Of a stretch of DNA of 54,512 nt, positions 24,784 through 46,027 are shown piece after piece. Every line of letters begins with the position of its first letter. The first letter of the stretch is position 1. The notes beneath the pieces were generated by a model. That model ran no database searches. It saw only the letters and a list, made by a program, of their open reading frames with translations, and was not told where the DNA came from. The position numbers and the translations under genes were made by a program. Source of the DNA: a virus (Duplodnaviria > Heunggongvirae > Uroviricota > Caudoviricetes); the IMG/VR virus record IMGVR_UViG_2529293142_000033. The stretch is one strand, 5' to 3'.

Positions 24784-25379
24784 GTGAGCTTAATGACAGT
24801 CGGGCAGTACGCCGAACATGCCGGGGTGAACCGGAAAACAATTTCACGATGGATCAAGGCCGGTACGTTTGTTGTCATGGACGGAAAAAAAATTGACGTG
24901 GAGGCGACAGATAAAAATCTGAAGCGTTTTCGTGACAGCGCCGATCCGCGTGCGGCAAACGGAAAAAAAACAGAGTCGCCAGAAAAGCTAGGGAATCGCA
25001 GTCCGGCACGGTGGAAGGGTTCGAGCAACGGGCAAGAGATGTGTTTGATTCGCTCACCTCCGGGGATGTTGTTATCCGTCCACTGGAAGAGTCCCGCGCA
25101 ATGAAAGAACACTTTTTTGCGGAGATGGCGCGTCTGGAATATGAGGATAAGGACGGAAAGCTGTTTCCGCTGAAACTCGTTACGGAACAGGTCGCTGCTG
25201 AATACACGCGAGTGAGGACGCGCCTTGTTGCCCTTGCGCCTGAGCATGGTCCCCGTCTGCGGGCGCTGGCGGGAATGACGGACGATCAGGGCTTCACGGC
25301 AGCGCTGCAGGAGTTGGTATACGAGGCACTGGATGAACTTGCATTTGAGAAAAGGGAAATCGAAGAAGACCCTTCTTAA
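24784..25379 (+). CDS. terminase small subunit (Nu1-like), with apparent -1 frameshift at A8 tract 24962-24969
   Basis: GTG start after ggagg; N-terminal HTH GQYAEHAGVNRKTISRWIKAG in one frame; protein-like C-terminal 120 aa continues in the -1 frame (ORF 25011-25379); one extra A restores a single ~198-aa ORF. Confidence 0.7.
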
Positions 25380-27312
25380 GAAAGCGCTGATCCAGTTGCA
25401 ACGACATCTTGCATCACCGCAGCCGATGTCCTTAAGCCAGTGGGCCAACACCTTCGCTGTACTGTCCCGTGAGACCAGTGCCCAGACGGGGAAATTCCGC
25501 TCCTATCCCTATCAGGACGGCATGATGGATGCCATCACAGACCCGTCGGTCACGTATGTGTCAGTGATGAAATCAGCCCGTGTGGGATACACGAAAATTC
25601 TTGACCATGTGGTGGGCTATTACCTGGCACATGATCCGTCCCCCATCCTGGTGGTTCAGCCGAGGGTGGAGGACGCCGAAGACTACAGTAAAACCGAAAT
25701 TGCCCCGATGCTGCGCGACACGCCGGTGCTGGCAGCCATCAGCGGCGACCCGAAGGCAAAAAACAGCAACCAGACCATTCTTCGCAAAACCTTTTCCAAC
25801 GGCGCAAACCTCACGCTGGTCGGGGCCAACTCCCCCGGCGGGTTTCGCCGTATCACATGCCGCATCATCCTTTTTGATGAGGTGGACGGGTATCCGGCAG
25901 GGGGCGCAGGATCCGAAGGGGATCAGATTGCGCTGGGAACAAAACGTTCCGAAACCTTCTGGAACCGCAAGATTGTACTCGGCTCCACGCCAACCGTGAA
26001 AGGCGTGAGCCGTATTGAAAAAGCCTGGCTGGAAAGCGATCAGCGCCGCTACTTCGTGCCCTGTCCTCACTGCGGTGAATATCAGGTGCTGGAGTGGGGC
26101 AGCAAAAGCACCCCTTACGGCATCAAATGGGAAAAGGACAGCGAAGGTAACGGGCTGCCGGAGACCGCTTACTACCTGTGCCGCCACCACGGCTGTGTGA
26201 TTGTGCACAGTGAACTGCCCGGGATGCTGGCAAAAGGCGAATGGCGCGCCGGTGCACCATTCAGGGGACATGCCGGTTTTCATATCTGGACGGGCTACAG
26301 CCCGCACTCAAATGCCTCCTGGCCGAATCTGGTCGCCGAGTGGCTGAGGGTGAAGGACGATCCGCTGATGCGCCAGACATTCATCAATACCACGCTGGGC
26401 GAGCCTTACGAGGATGCAGGCGAGTTTGCGATGAGTGAGCAGCGGCTGATTGCCCGCGTTGAGGTCTGGGGGGCGGAGGTGCCGGAGGGCGTGCTCCTGC
26501 TCACCGCCGGGGTGGATACACAGGATGACCGCTTTGAAATCACCGTTCTCGGCTGGGGCATGAACGAAGAGTGCTGGGTGATTGCGCATGACGTGATTTT
26601 TGGTGACCTGGAAACAGAAGAGCCGTGGGAGCGCCTTGACGCGTATCTGAAACAGGTCTGGCGGCGGGCTGACGGTTTCGGGCTGACGCTCTCGGCGGTC
26701 TGTCATGACTCGGGCGGTCATCACACCAACAAAGTGTACGAGTTCTCGAAGGCGCGTATCGGGCGTCGTATCTGGGCGACAAAAGGTGAGTCCGCCACTG
26801 GCGGCAAACGTAACCCTGTCTGGCCGACGCGTGTCGTTTCGTCCCGCAACCGGAAATCCTTCCGCCCCGTCATTCTGGGGGTGAACTCCGCGAAGGACGA
26901 CATCAGGCACCGGCTGCATATTGAGCCGGATCCGGCAGGCGCGCCGACCGCAGGCTGTATCCATTTTCCGTCGTTTCTGGATCTGCACTATTTCAGTCAG
27001 CTGCTCTCTGAGCGTCTGGTGCGTAAGGAGAGCGGCGGGCAGGTGTACCGTGTCTGGGAGTTGTCTTCCGGGCGGGCGAATGAGGCGCTGGACTGCATGG
27101 TGTACGGTTACGCGGCCCTGAAGGGGCTGCTGCATCACGGCCTGAAACTGAACCGTCTGGCTGAACGGACGGCGCAGGATCTGTCGTTTATGGCGCCGCC
27201 TCCCGCGCAGCCGGAAGAAAAAATCAGTTTAAGTATGCCGGGCGCAAAAGCACCGGAGACACCCCGTAAGAAAATACCGCTGCATATGAGGCTTGCAGGA
27301 GTGAGACGATGA
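25333..27312 (+). CDS. terminase large subunit (lambda gpA-like)
   Basis: VMKSARVGYTK, FINTTLGEPYE and NEALDCMVYGYAA segments match lambda gpA pattern; start may be an internal Met (for example 25426). Confidence 0.9.
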   Translation: MNLHLRKGKSKKTLLKKALIQLQRHLASPQPMSLSQWANTFAVLSRETSAQTGKFRSYPYQDGMMDAITDPSVTYVSVMKSARVGYTKILDHVVGYYLAHDPSPILVVQPRVEDAEDYSKTEIAPMLRDTPVLAAISGDPKAKNSNQTILRKTFSNGANLTLVGANSPGGFRRITCRIILFDEVDGYPAGGAGSEGDQIALGTKRSETFWNRKIVLGSTPTVKGVSRIEKAWLESDQRRYFVPCPHCGEYQVLEWGSKSTPYGIKWEKDSEGNGLPETAYYLCRHHGCVIVHSELPGMLAKGEWRAGAPFRGHAGFHIWTGYSPHSNASWPNLVAEWLRVKDDPLMRQTFINTTLGEPYEDAGEFAMSEQRLIARVEVWGAEVPEGVLLLTAGVDTQDDRFEITVLGWGMNEECWVIAHDVIFGDLETEEPWERLDAYLKQVWRRADGFGLTLSAVCHDSGGHHTNKVYEFSKARIGRRIWATKGESATGGKRNPVWPTRVVSSRNRKSFRPVILGVNSAKDDIRHRLHIEPDPAGAPTAGCIHFPSFLDLHYFSQLLSERLVRKESGGQVYRVWELSSGRANEALDCMVYGYAALKGLLHHGLKLNRLAERTAQDLSFMAPPPAQPEEKISLSMPGAKAPETPRKKIPLHMRLAGVRR

Positions 27313-27560
27313 TGAATACCCCCGGCGTGTTTGCCGGAATGTCAAAAGAACAACTGAAGGCGGCACTGAATGAAGCTCAGGCGGCCTATATTGAGCTGCT
27401 TTCAGGGCGGCGTGGCGTGAGTTTCTCCTATGCACAGGGGGACGGCACGCGCACCGTGACTTATTCACAGGCCAGCAGTGCGGATTTGCTGGCGCTGATC
27501 GCGACGCTCCAGCGGGCGCTGGGGATAAGGACGAGAAGGTCCCTGAGCGTGCGTTACTGA
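27309..27560 (+). CDS. head-tail joining protein (gpW-like)
   Basis: 83 aa, position between terminase and portal, resembles lambda W. Confidence 0.7.
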   Translation: MMNTPGVFAGMSKEQLKAALNEAQAAYIELLSGRRGVSFSYAQGDGTRTVTYSQASSADLLALIATLQRALGIRTRRSLSVRY

Positions 27561-27568
27561 GGTGAGCG

Positions 27569-44684: not shown

Positions 44685-45475
44685 TGAGAAAAATATCGGA
44701 CATCACATCATATGTGGATGAGAATGACGAGTTCACGGACGGTGAGCCAGCCACAGGCGTGAAGCCGACGCCGTTGCTTGCTCTCTGGTTCAACGTCATA
44801 CAGCGGGAGCTGGTGAAGGTGGTGGAGAGTGCGGGGCTGACACTGGACCCGACAGATGACACACAGCTATGGCAGGCGCTGTCGGGCTATTTTGCCTCAC
44901 AGGAGAATGTGAACACCACAATCAGCGCGCTGGGCACGATGGCTTCCCAGAACAGTGATGCGGTGGATATCACCGGCGGCGCGATAACAGGCACCTCCCT
45001 CACCGGTGACCTGACGGGCAATGCGGACACGGCCACAAAACTGAAAACGGGGCGGAAAATCCGGACAAATCTTGACAGCACGAGTGCTGTCAGTTTTGAC
45101 GGCAGTGCGAATGTCACGCCGGGCGTGACCGGCACATTGCCGGTGAGCAATGGCGGTACGGGGGCCACGACGGCATCAGACGCCAGAACAAATCTGGAGC
45201 TGGGAGATGTGGCAACCCAGAGTCTGAGTACGCTCGATGCCCGTTACCTGCTGACGACAGGAGGTGTGTCGGCGGTAAGGCTGGGGAGTGTCAGTTCATA
45301 TAGCCCTCCCGGCAACGAGTCGTCGTGGACGCAGAATCTTTCCTCCGGCAATGTGCTCACAGGGATTATCGTTCAGGATACAGGGTCCAATTCTGCGGAT
45401 AACATTGGCGGAATTTATTACAGGCAGGTTCAGTACTGCATAAACGGCACATGGATAAATGCGGTATCACTGTAA
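44684..45475 (+). CDS. tail fibre protein
   Basis: 263 aa; Gly/Thr/Ser-rich with GGAITGTSLTGDLTGNADTATKL-type repeat typical of fibre shafts. Confidence 0.7.
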   Translation: MRKISDITSYVDENDEFTDGEPATGVKPTPLLALWFNVIQRELVKVVESAGLTLDPTDDTQLWQALSGYFASQENVNTTISALGTMASQNSDAVDITGGAITGTSLTGDLTGNADTATKLKTGRKIRTNLDSTSAVSFDGSANVTPGVTGTLPVSNGGTGATTASDARTNLELGDVATQSLSTLDARYLLTTGGVSAVRLGSVSSYSPPGNESSWTQNLSSGNVLTGIIVQDTGSNSADNIGGIYYRQVQYCINGTWINAVSL

Positions 45476-45487
45476 AGGAGAGTGTTA

Positions 45488-46027
45488 ATGATAAACATCA
45501 AAAATTTCACGCCATACATCCCGGAAAACCCGCCCGTGGCGTGGGCGTCATATCTCATCAGCGAGGATGGTCAGGACTGGTATGAATGCCAGACGCAGTT
45601 TGCAGAGGATACATACAAAGTTGCGTACGGCAGTGACGGTATCGTGCGCAGCATTTCGACCGATGTGTCGGCACTTTTTCCGCTCAACATGAGTGTTGCT
45701 GAGGTTGAGTCGCTGCCGGACGGTGCGGATATTGACGGCAACTGGGTATTAGACGGGGAGAGTGTGGTTGCGCGGACGCTGACGGCAGCGGAGTGGCAGG
45801 CAAAGGCGGAATCACAACGAAGCGCGCTGATATCGGATGCGAAGGCGACAATCAGCCTCTGGCAGTCAGAGCTTCTGCTGGGCATCATCAGTGATGACGA
45901 CAAAGAGAGTCTGACGGAATGGCTGTCTTACATAAAGGCGCTTCAGGGGCTGGATTTAAGTGGTGTGACAGATGAGGAGGGTTACAACGCGACAGTCTGG
46001 CCGGATGAACCGGGAGCCACAGCATAA
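45488..46027 (+). CDS. tail fibre assembly protein (Tfa)
   Basis: aaggagag RBS; about 180 aa; follows fibre gene as in P2/Mu. Confidence 0.65.
   Translation: MINIKNFTPYIPENPPVAWASYLISEDGQDWYECQTQFAEDTYKVAYGSDGIVRSISTDVSALFPLNMSVAEVESLPDGADIDGNWVLDGESVVARTLTAAEWQAKAESQRSALISDAKATISLWQSELLLGIISDDDKESLTEWLSYIKALQGLDLSGVTDEEGYNATVWPDEPGATA

What the first reader, a model, noticed from the sequence alone, without database searches (positions are those of the whole stretch)
25333..46027. Chimeric virion module: lambda-like head genes joined to a Mu-like contractile tail
Terminase, W, portal, S49 protease, scaffold, D-like and E-like genes follow lambda order, but are followed by sheath, tube, frameshifted chaperone, tape measure, N-like, P-like, gp45-48-like, fibre and Tfa genes typical of Mu-type myovirus tails. 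A similar mosaic has been reported for Shigella phage SfV (from memory), so the architecture is probably not new but is uncommon.
Basis: partly seen in the sequence, partly recalled or inferred. Interest (0 to 1): 0.4.

Follow-up and report, generated by a model that had tools for sequence, protein, structure and literature searches.

The report
Lambda-type head, Mu-type tail prophage
This is the particle-building gene block of an E. coli prophage inserted at dusA, combining a lambda-style head and DNA-packaging system with a Mu-style contractile tail; the combination is real but already known from isolated phages and widespread in bacteria, and this copy looks broken.

Summary
Head genes match lambda only, and tail genes match Mu and SfV only.

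The architecture is not new. The whole block is collinear, at 26-73% amino-acid identity (most genes 45-73%), with Citrobacter phage phiNP and Serratia phage vB_SspM_BZS1. Both are electron-microscopy-proven myoviruses. BZS1 also has lambda-like 12-nt cohesive ends and mass-spectrometry-confirmed virion proteins. Acetobacter phage phiAP1 has the same layout.

It is not uncommon overall. Capsid relatives occur in 266 stretches of species-representative genomes. In 59 of 61 testable loci the Mu-type sheath lies downstream, across Gamma-, Beta- and Alphaproteobacteria. It is rare only in E. coli (11 of 5426 complete genomes).

SfV is an imprecise precedent, because its head is HK97-type.

The module also extends left of the given coordinates. 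That stretch holds a gpZ/HK97-gp10-like tail-completion gene, a conserved cos site and terS. The neck gene 32652-33212 has a tail-terminator fold.

This copy carries private lesions relative to 99.9%-identical E. coli prophages. terS has a frameshift, and the Mu-P-like baseplate hub has a TGG-to-TAG stop. The repressor is also frameshifted relative to a 97%-identical prophage. The copy is probably defective. Interest is low.

The parts
23815..24480 (+).
24537..24548 (+). Candidate cosN, GCATTGCGCGAG (12-nt cohesive-end sequence)
   Evidence: 10 of 12 bases match the experimentally determined BZS1 5' overhang GCATTGCGCGCC (PMC7556043). The 10-mer GCATTGCGCG sits at the equivalent place, between the gpZ-like gene and terS, in phiNP and about 40 related loci.
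24585..24765 (.). cosB-like array of about 12 copies of ATGTCCCA in both orientations (candidate small-terminase binding sites)
   Evidence: the repeat finder and TRF. The function is inferred from position between cosN and terS.
24793..25379 (+). Small terminase (HTH type, Nu1 position), frameshifted in this copy by loss of one A in the A-run at 24955-24962
   Evidence: PHROG 57 terminase small subunit at E 4e-11 and a weak HTH_17 match. The gene is an intact 195-aa ORF in the 99.9%-identical L006 and L009. The window lacks one A.
25333..27312 (+). Large terminase, lambda gpA type
   Evidence: Pfam GpA_ATPase and GpA_nuclease. 35% identity to lambda A and 73% to phiNP and BZS1.
27309..27560 (+). 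gpW head-tail joining protein
   Evidence: Pfam gpW at E 1e-12.
27569..29209 (+). Portal, lambda gpB family
   Evidence: Pfam Phage_portal_2 at E 1e-99. 30% identity to lambda B.
29206..30066 (+). S49 prohead protease (lambda gpC-like)
   Evidence: Pfam Peptidase_S49. 36% identity to lambda C.
30059..30640 (+). Probable scaffold (Nu3 position), containing an 81-nt tandem repeat
   Evidence: Assigned by position only. PHROG 6382 of unknown function. TRF array at 30132-30328.
30637..31038 (+). Head decoration protein, gpD family
   Evidence: Pfam HDPD at E 8e-18. The BZS1 homologue was found in virions by mass spectrometry (PMC7556043).
31064..32149 (+). Major capsid protein, gpE family
   Evidence: Pfam Phage_cap_E at E 1e-57. 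29% identity to lambda E, 65% to phiNP, 62% to BZS1.
32100..32336 (+). Small DUF7210 protein in the FI position
   Evidence: Pfam DUF7210 at E 4e-8. The function was not tested.
32317..32655 (+). Head-tail attachment protein, gpFII family
   Evidence: Pfam Phage_attach at E 5e-17.
32652..33212 (+). Tail terminator (assigned by fold)
33172..33450 (+). DUF2635 protein (Mup38 homologue)
   Evidence: Pfam DUF2635 at E 8e-15. 49% identity to Mu gp38.
33447..34949 (+). Tail sheath (Mu L type)
   Evidence: Pfam sheath domains. 39% identity to Mu L, 41% to SfV, 61% to phiNP.
34989..35354 (+). Tail tube (Mu M type)
   Evidence: Pfam Tail_tube PF10618 at E 4e-33.
35354..35781 (+). Tail assembly chaperone with a programmed -1 frameshift: the 0-frame ORF is 35354-35635, the slip site G_GGT_TTT_TTC is at 35614-35623, and the -1 frame extension runs to 35781
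   Evidence: Pfam Phage_TAC_7. In-phase slippery heptamers T_TTT_TTN lie at the same place in BZS1, phiNP and SfV, and the -1-frame peptides are conserved (W..W..QA.RIN). The extension matches PHROG 10636 at E 2e-11.
35765..37738 (+). Tape measure protein with a lytic transglycosylase domain
   Evidence: Pfam SLT at E 2e-18 and a weak PhageMin_Tail match.
37731..39161 (+). Mu N-like (DNA circularisation) baseplate protein
   Evidence: Pfam DNA_circ_N at E 1e-29. It matches Mu N in the solved Mu baseplate 9ki1 at E 4e-11.
39158..40246 (+). Mu P (gp44)-like baseplate hub, interrupted by an in-frame TAG at 39470-39472
   Evidence: Pfam GpP-like_1st, Gp44-like_2nd and GpP_4th are split over two ORFs. 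A single G-to-A change at 39471 turns TGG into TAG relative to five near-identical E. coli copies, which encode 362 aa. The truncated allele is on record in 3 contigs, for example AFDY02000024.1.
40243..40824 (+). Mu gp45-like baseplate spike/assembly protein
   Evidence: Pfam Phage_Mu_Gp45.
40826..41263 (+). Mu gp46-like baseplate wedge protein
   Evidence: Pfam GP46 at E 8e-34. 44% identity to Mu gp46.
41214..42419 (+). Mu gp47 / Baseplate_J wedge protein
   Evidence: Pfam Baseplate_J at E 8e-56. 30% identity to Mu gp47.
42407..43597 (+). Mu gp48-like wedge protein with a C-terminal extension of about 200 aa that carries 51-nt tandem repeats
   Evidence: Pfam Phage_Mu_Gp48 over residues 19-189 and a weak Big_13 match. 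TRF array at 43332-43564. Relatives encode 372 or 396 aa.
43578..44684 (+). Conserved protein of unknown function between gp48 and the fibre gene, absent from phiNP and BZS1
   Evidence: PHROG 8291 at E 2e-139, function unknown. No Pfam or PDB sequence match. No hit in the five reference phages.
44684..45475 (+). Tail fibre
   Evidence: Many PHROG tail-fibre families at E down to 8e-30. The N-terminus is 43-49% identical to the phiNP and BZS1 fibres, and the protein is 28% identical to Mu S'.
45482..46027 (+). Tail fibre assembly protein
   Evidence: Pfam Caudo_TAP at E 1e-23. 33% identity to Mu U'.

Best explanation
The region is the late (virion) operon of a lambdoid temperate myovirus of the phiNP / vB_SspM_BZS1 type. 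The prophage is about 52 kb, is integrated into the 5' end of dusA in an E. coli-type chromosome, and lies between yjbM and dusA.

Inferred mechanism, by homology:
- A Q-type antiterminator drives one rightward late transcript through lysis genes, a gpZ-like tail-completion gene, cos, terS and terL.
- A lambda-type terminase (HTH small subunit plus gpA) recognises cosB repeats. It nicks cosN to give 12-nt cohesive ends and packages DNA through a gpB-type portal.
- The prohead is built from gpE-type capsid protein with an S49 protease and scaffold, is stabilised by gpD-type decoration protein, and is closed by gpW and gpFII.
- Separately, a Mu-type contractile tail is assembled. The baseplate uses N, P (hub), gp45, gp46, gp47 and gp48. 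Length is set by a tape measure with a transglycosylase domain, helped by a chaperone made through a -1 frameshift. A tube and sheath are polymerised, capped by the terminator (32652-33212), and completed by the gpZ-like protein.
- The FII ring docks on the terminator.

The head-plus-tail combination is an old, vertically stable unit rather than a recent splice. In this particular copy terS is frameshifted and the hub gene has an amber codon. As sequenced, it should therefore be unable to package DNA or build a baseplate, making it a decaying (cryptic) prophage.
For: Shown here:
- Profile matches exist for every gene except the scaffold, which is placed by position only.
- Lambda-only matches for head genes and Mu/SfV-only matches for tail genes.
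- The block is collinear at 26-73% aa identity (most genes 45-73%) with phiNP and BZS1 from the gpZ-like gene to the fibre N-terminus. phiAP1 has the same layout.
- 59 of 61 capsid-anchored loci from species-representative genomes of three proteobacterial classes carry FII plus a Mu-type sheath downstream.
- The cosN 10-mer is conserved at the same place in about 40 loci.
- The frameshift site and the -1 peptide are conserved.
- The terminator and tail-completion folds are supported.
- Prophage context: a dusA 5' duplication at 1068-1174 and 53472-53578, an integrase at 52289-53386, and the same site in E. coli 377323_2f.
- The lesions are single private changes relative to 99.93-99.96%-identical copies.

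From the literature:
- phiNP and BZS1 have contractile tails by electron microscopy.
- BZS1 has 12-nt 5' cohesive ends, and mass spectrometry detected D, E, terminator, sheath, tube, N, P and gp45-48 homologues in virions (PMC6456863, PMC7556043).
Against: No experiment was done on this element. The scaffold is assigned by position only, and the cosB function is assumed.

The tail-completion model is of modest confidence (pLDDT 65), and the hhalign probability to gpZ is only 19%.

The terS lesion is a homopolymer-length difference, a common sequencing error, so 'defective' depends on sequence accuracy. The amber allele is on record in 3 contigs, but these may come from one strain. An amber codon could be partly suppressed in a suppressor host.
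Confidence: 0.9

Rival explanations
1. This copy is a fully functional, inducible phage. On this reading the terS frameshift and the repressor frameshift are sequencing or assembly errors, and the amber codon is either an error or is read through.
For: The terS lesion and the private noncoding change at 24604 are single-base deletions in T/A runs, at 24604 and 24962. All other virion ORFs are intact and 99.9% identical to copies with intact genes.
Against: The amber change is a substitution, not a homopolymer error, and the same truncated 104-aa product is on record in 3 contigs. Three independent disruptions (repressor, terS, P) plus an IS21 insertion next to the fibre genes fit decay.
Confidence: 0.2
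2. The arrangement is an accidental juxtaposition. Two different prophages (a lambda-like siphovirus remnant and a Mu-like myovirus remnant) would lie side by side, or an assembly would have joined them, so head and tail do not work together.
For: Head and tail halves resemble different model phages. The prophage carries IS elements and other signs of rearrangement.
Against: There is no gap, strand switch or composition break between FII and the sheath. The same junction is present in three isolated phages, two of them proven myoviruses with both sets of proteins in the virion (PMC7556043). It is also present in 59 of 61 loci from distant genera. There are no lambda tail genes (V, H, J) and no Mu head genes.
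Confidence: 0.02
3. The tail half has been domesticated as a tailocin (R-type bacteriocin), as happened to a Mu-like tail in Pseudomonas syringae. The head genes would then be decaying baggage.
For: Mu-like tails have been co-opted as killing particles (PMC4542187). The terS lesion would not matter for a tailocin.
Against: The head genes are intact and under the same conservation as the tail genes (99.9% identity to relatives). The lesion in P hits the tail itself. The integrase, att sites, cos and lambdoid regulatory genes are all present.
Confidence: 0.03
4. It is an SfV/ST64B/phiP27-type phage.
For: The Mu-like tail genes are 23-43% identical to SfV orf10-21 and in the same order. Both have a lambdoid early region and the same frameshift site in the chaperone.
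Against: The SfV terminase, portal, protease and capsid give no match to this window's head proteins and are HK97-family (PMC3851460). SfV has no gpW, gpD, gpE or FII genes.
Confidence: 0.03

Closest known systems
Citrobacter phage phiNP (OR565852) and Serratia phage vB_SspM_BZS1 (MT843275)
   Same: The order of all virion genes is identical, from the gpZ-like gene and cos through terS, A, W, B, C, scaffold, D, E, FII, terminator, Mup38-48 homologues and the fibre N-terminus. Identity is 26-73% aa, and 45-73% for most genes. The cosN sequence is shared. Both have a lambdoid early region, and both are temperate myoviruses by electron microscopy (PMC6456863, PMC7556043).
   Different: There is no nucleotide-level similarity. 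The integration sites differ: dusA here, ssrA for phiNP. This element has a 200-aa extension on gp48, an extra 354-368-aa gene (43578-44684), and a different fibre tip and Tfa that are closer to Mu S'/U'. This copy also has the terS and P lesions.
Acetobacter phage phiAP1 (LC644972)
   Same: The lambda-type head followed by a Mu-type tail has the same layout. The capsid is 58% identical.
   Different: The host is an alphaproteobacterium. The baseplate annotation differs in part (a gene-25-like protein). It was not compared gene by gene here.
Phage lambda (head and packaging)
   Same: The genes run Nu1-A-W-B-C-(Nu3)-D-E-(FI)-FII in the same order. A, B, C and E are 29-36% identical, and W, D and FII match by Pfam profile. 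Packaging is by cos. A gpZ-family tail-completion protein and a gpU-fold terminator are present.
   Different: There are no V, G/T, H, M, L, K, I or J tail genes. The protease and scaffold are separate genes rather than nested. The gpZ-like gene lies upstream of cos instead of after FII.
Phage Mu (tail)
   Same: The genes run gp38-L-M-gp41-gp42-N-P-gp45-gp46-gp47-gp48-S-U in the same order at 28-49% identity where detectable. The N homologue matches the solved Mu baseplate component.
   Different: There is no Mu head (gp28-gp34), no transposase A/B and no G-segment invertase. The terminator and completion proteins show no sequence similarity to Mu gp37 or G.
Shigella phage SfV / ST64B / phiP27 group
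   Same: These are lambdoid temperate myoviruses with a Mu-like tail module, and they have the same chaperone frameshift site.
   Different: The head module is HK97-type (portal-protease-capsid with no decoration protein), not lambda-type (PMC3851460).
Pararheinheimera phage vB_PsoM_KLER1-1 (OM654378)
   Same: It has a lambda-type head (capsid 41% identical), with W, D and a gpZ-family gene, joined to a contractile tail.
   Different: Its tail is P2-type (gpU, gpW/gp25, gpJ and gpI families), not Mu-type. This shows that lambda-type heads have been combined with more than one kind of contractile tail.

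Membership tests
Lambda-type head and cos-packaging module | gpA-type large terminase with both ATPase and nuclease domains | tested here: met
   Pfam E 2e-76 and 5e-82. 35% identity to lambda A.
Lambda-type head and cos-packaging module | gpW, gpB-family portal, S49 (gpC) protease, gpD decoration, gpE capsid and gpFII, in lambda order | tested here: met
   All six Pfam families score above their curated cut-offs and lie in order on one strand.
Lambda-type head and cos-packaging module | cos site with defined cohesive ends upstream of the small terminase gene | tested here: inconclusive
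   A sequence matching 10 of 12 bases of the BZS1 overhang lies at 24537-24548 and is conserved in about 40 loci. Actual ends were not determined for this element.
Lambda-type head and cos-packaging module | Intact small terminase | tested here: not met
   terS is frameshifted by a 1-nt deletion relative to L006 and L009. This concerns the present copy, not the lineage.
Mu-type contractile tail module (Mup38-Mup48) | DUF2635, sheath, PF10618 tube, TAC_7 chaperone, tape measure, DNA_circ_N (N), GpP, Gp45, GP46, Baseplate_J (gp47) and Gp48, in Mu order | tested here: met
   Pfam matches. tblastn to Mu at 29-49% identity. PDB sequence match to Mu N.
Mu-type contractile tail module (Mup38-Mup48) | Intact baseplate hub (P/gp44) | tested here: not met
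   An in-frame TAG lies at 39470-39472. Relatives have TGG.
Mu-like phage (whole genome: transposable phage) | MuA/MuB transposition-replication genes and a Mu-type head (gp28-34) | tested here: not met
   There are no matches to Mu head genes. The early region is lambdoid, with a Q antiterminator, CII-like protein, Rha, RusA and a tyrosine integrase at dusA. The only Mu-transposase-like domain belongs to IS21 IstA.
phiNP / BZS1-type lambdoid myoviruses | Collinear virion module with detectable identity for every gene, a shared cosN, and the gpZ-like gene upstream of cos | tested here: met
phiNP / BZS1-type lambdoid myoviruses | Contractile-tailed particle morphology | not testable with these tools
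   Electron microscopy exists only for phiNP and BZS1 (PMC6456863, PMC7556043).
SfV-type phages | HK97-type head module joined to a Mu-like tail | tested here: not met
   The tail part is met and the head part is not. There is no similarity to SfV orf1-5, and the SfV head is HK97-family (PMC3851460).

The most novel reading that the evidence does not exclude
The seam between the two ancestries may lie not after FII but between the terminator and the sheath. On this reading the neck (gpW, gpFII, a gpU-like terminator, and a gpZ/gp10-like completion protein displaced to the far side of cos) is of siphovirus/lambda descent. It would have been adapted, perhaps through the disordered 40-residue C-terminal tail of the terminator, to cap a Mu-type contractile sheath.

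Probability: 0.3. Interest if true: 0.35.

Novelty: new member of a known kind. Interest (0 to 1): 0.15.

Why it matters
It matters little for discovery. The lambda-head/Mu-tail design is already represented by isolated, imaged and proteomically characterised phages, and this prophage already sits, annotated, in public E. coli genomes.

The useful outcomes are mainly corrective. The right reference phages are phiNP, BZS1 and phiAP1, not SfV. The design is a widespread, stable lineage across Proteobacteria rather than a rare chimera. The module includes a tail-completion gene, cos and terS to the left of the reported start. This copy is probably a dead prophage.

The lineage could serve structural work on how a lambda-type connector docks onto a contractile tail.

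Tried and rejected
- Megablast of the 20.7-kb block against 50,697 phage records found nothing. Relatives appeared only at protein level.
- Comparison of the 23815-24480 family with Mu G + SfV orf8 gave nothing. A PDB sequence search also gave nothing.
- The word-indexed homologue search for the terminator returned only 11 proteins, so that model rests on a shallow alignment.
- PDB sequence search of the unknown gene 43578-44684 found nothing, and its function remains open.
- The ideas that the block is two adjacent prophages, a tailocin, or an SfV-type phage were considered and rejected (see rival explanations).
- I did not establish the strain name behind the window. The GTDB E. coli representative lacks the element.

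Full report
**1. Observation**

The + strand between 25333 and 46027 is a tight run of overlapping or abutting ORFs. Pfam assigns them as follows.

Head genes:
- gpA terminase (both domains)
- gpW
- lambda-family portal
- S49 peptidase
- gpD decoration protein
- gpE capsid protein
- gpFII

Tail genes:
- DUF2635
- sheath (three domains)
- PF10618 tube
- TAC_7 chaperone
- a tape measure with an SLT domain
- DNA_circ_N
- GpP domains
- Mu Gp45, GP46, Baseplate_J and Mu Gp48
- a lambda-K/Tfa-type fibre assembly protein

E-values run from 6e-7 (the TAC_7 chaperone) to 1e-99, so chance is excluded. The gene called 'scaffold' (30059-30640) has no family assignment beyond a PHROG of unknown function. 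It is a scaffold by position only.

**2. The mosaic is real**

I ran tblastn of each product against lambda, Mu and SfV. The head proteins A, B, C and E match lambda at 29-36% identity and match nothing in Mu or SfV. DUF2635, sheath, N, P, gp46, gp47, gp48, the fibre and Tfa match Mu and/or SfV at 24-49% identity and match nothing in lambda. There are no lambda tail genes and no Mu head genes.

**3. It is a known kind**

The capsid and the sheath each find the same two best phage records. These are Citrobacter phage phiNP (65% and 61%) and Serratia phage vB_SspM_BZS1 (62% and 59%). Their annotated genomes are collinear with the window gene for gene, at 26-73% aa identity and 45-73% for most genes.

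- phiNP is a spontaneously released temperate phage with a contractile tail by electron microscopy (PMC6456863).
- BZS1 is a temperate myovirus by electron microscopy. It has 12-nt 5' cohesive ends, GCATTGCGCGCC. Virion mass spectrometry detected the D, E, p11, sheath, tube, N, P and gp45-48 homologues (PMC7556043).
- Acetobacter phage phiAP1 has the same layout.
- Phage KLER1-1 joins a lambda-type head to a P2-type contractile tail.

Its head is HK97-family (PMC3851460).

**4. It is widespread and stable**

A capsid-anchored scan of one genome per species found 266 stretches that encode capsid relatives. The best 80 come from Enterobacterales, Morganellaceae, Burkholderiales, Sphingomonadales, Rhizobiales, Azospirillum, Acinetobacter and others. 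Of the 61 loci with more than 6.5 kb downstream of the capsid gene, 59 carry both FII and the Mu-type sheath. Most also carry N, P and gp45-47 homologues.

The head-tail pairing is therefore an old co-inherited unit, not a recent chimera. Within E. coli it is rare: 11 of 5426 complete genomes have a match, and 8 of those hold most of the block.

**5. Context**

The window is an E. coli-type chromosome.
- yjbM (DUF2713) lies at 1-708 and dusA at 53475-54512.
- A decayed copy of the dusA 5' end lies at 1068-1174, 82% identical to 53472-53578.
- A tyrosine integrase lies at 52289-53386.

The prophage therefore spans about 1.17-53.58 kb. The same element sits at dusA in E. coli 377323_2f, at 97% identity. 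The window is 99.93-99.96% identical over 21.5 kb to draft E. coli assemblies.

The early region is lambdoid. It holds a LexA/YmfK-type repressor, CII-like protein, Rha/Ash, RusA, a Q antiterminator, four tRNA genes, a lambda-family holin and a GH24 endolysin.

The virion block has 56-62% G+C, against 38-53% for the early region and flanks.

**6. The module extends left of 25333**

- Between it and terS lies GCATTGCGCGAG (24537-24548), which matches 10 of 12 bases of the BZS1 cohesive end. The 10-mer is conserved at the equivalent position in about 40 loci.
- An array of about a dozen ATGTCCCA repeats follows. I interpret this, by position, as cosB.

**7. The neck**

Whether it descends from the lambda side or the Mu side cannot be settled. 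The slightly better fit to gpU is the basis of the novel case.

**8. The chaperone frameshift**

The TAC ORF ends five codons after G_GGT_TTT_TTC (35614-35623). This sequence contains two in-phase slippery heptamers. A -1 ORF overlaps it and runs to 35781, at the start of the tape measure gene. BZS1, phiNP and SfV have T_TTT_TTN in phase at the same place, and their -1 peptides are conserved. The extension matches a PHROG at E 2e-11.

**9. This copy is damaged**

Only four positions in the 21.5 kb differ from both L006 and L009:
- loss of one T at 24604, in the cos region;
- loss of one A in the A-run at 24955-24962, which frameshifts terS (an intact 195-aa ORF in relatives);
- G to A at 39471, which turns a Trp codon of the Mu-P-like hub into TAG;
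- a G/T difference at 44392.

The truncated hub product is on record in three contigs.

The repressor is also split by a 1-nt deletion near 7807 relative to a 97%-identical prophage. In addition, an IS21-family element (istA and istB, 46908-49210), an IS3-family transposase fragment and an AraC-type gene replace the segment found after Tfa in the relative.

Taken at face value this is a decaying prophage that cannot package DNA or build a baseplate. The terS and 24604 changes are homopolymer indels, and these together with the repressor deletion could be sequencing errors, so I put this at about 0.7.

**10. Verdict**

The element is a new, uncharacterised member of a known kind. Interest is low, at 0.15.

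Noticed in passing
window 39470-39472: An in-frame TAG interrupts the Mu-P-like baseplate hub gene. It is a single G-to-A change relative to five near-identical E. coli copies, which have TGG. The truncated 104-aa allele is on record in 3 contigs (for example AFDY02000024.1).
   Followed up: yes
window 24955-24962 (terS 24793-25379): The loss of one A in an A-run frameshifts the small terminase gene. Relatives L006 and L009 encode an intact 195-aa protein. This could be a real lesion or a homopolymer sequencing error.
   Followed up: yes
window 7395-8068 (- strand): The LexA/YmfK-type prophage repressor is split into an N-terminal HTH ORF (7802-8068) and a C-terminal S24 peptidase ORF (7395-7733). 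The cause is a 1-nt deletion near 7807 relative to the intact 224-aa gene in E. coli A39.
   Followed up: partly
window 46051-51561: An IS21-family element (istA 46908-48449, istB 48461-49210), an IS3-family transposase fragment (49268-49978, - strand) and an AraC-family regulator gene (50300-51130, - strand) lie here. They occupy the place where the related prophage in E. coli 377323_2f has an alpha/beta hydrolase gene.
   Followed up: partly
window 1068-1174 and 53472-53578: A 107-bp duplication of the dusA 5' end (82% identical) marks the prophage ends. The integrase (52289-53386, - strand) abuts dusA, as in dusA-specific integrating elements. yjbM (DUF2713) lies at 1-708.
   Followed up: partly
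window 24585-24765: A dense array of about 12 copies of ATGTCCCA in both orientations includes five perfect tandem 8-mers at 24685-24724. It lies between the candidate cosN and terS. These are possible TerS binding sites, but phiNP and BZS1 have a different repeat (GGTAACA) at that place.
   Followed up: partly
window 16114-16423: Four tRNA genes (Met-CAT by ARAGORN, annotated Ile in the relative; Arg-TCT; Thr-TGT; Gly-TCC) lie just downstream of the Q antiterminator gene.
   Followed up: no
window 43332-43564 and 30132-30328: There are in-frame tandem repeats in two genes. One is 51 nt x 4.6 in the C-terminal extension of the gp48-like protein, whose relatives encode 372 or 396 aa. The other is 81 nt x 2.4 in the putative scaffold gene.
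   Followed up: no
window 43578-44684: A conserved 354-368-aa protein (PHROG 8291, function unknown) lies between gp48 and the fibre gene. It is absent from phiNP, BZS1, Mu and SfV, and may be an extra receptor-binding or fibre-anchoring component.
   Followed up: partly
window 20001-46000 versus the rest: The late region, and above all the virion block (56-62% G+C), is much richer in G+C than the early region and host flanks (38-53%). This suggests the structural module came from a higher-GC lineage.
   Followed up: no
window 19476-20411: The ORF just upstream of the holin corresponds, at 97% nucleotide identity, to a gene annotated 'glycosyltransferase family 9 protein' in E. coli 377323_2f. 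It may be a cargo gene affecting the LPS core.
   Followed up: no
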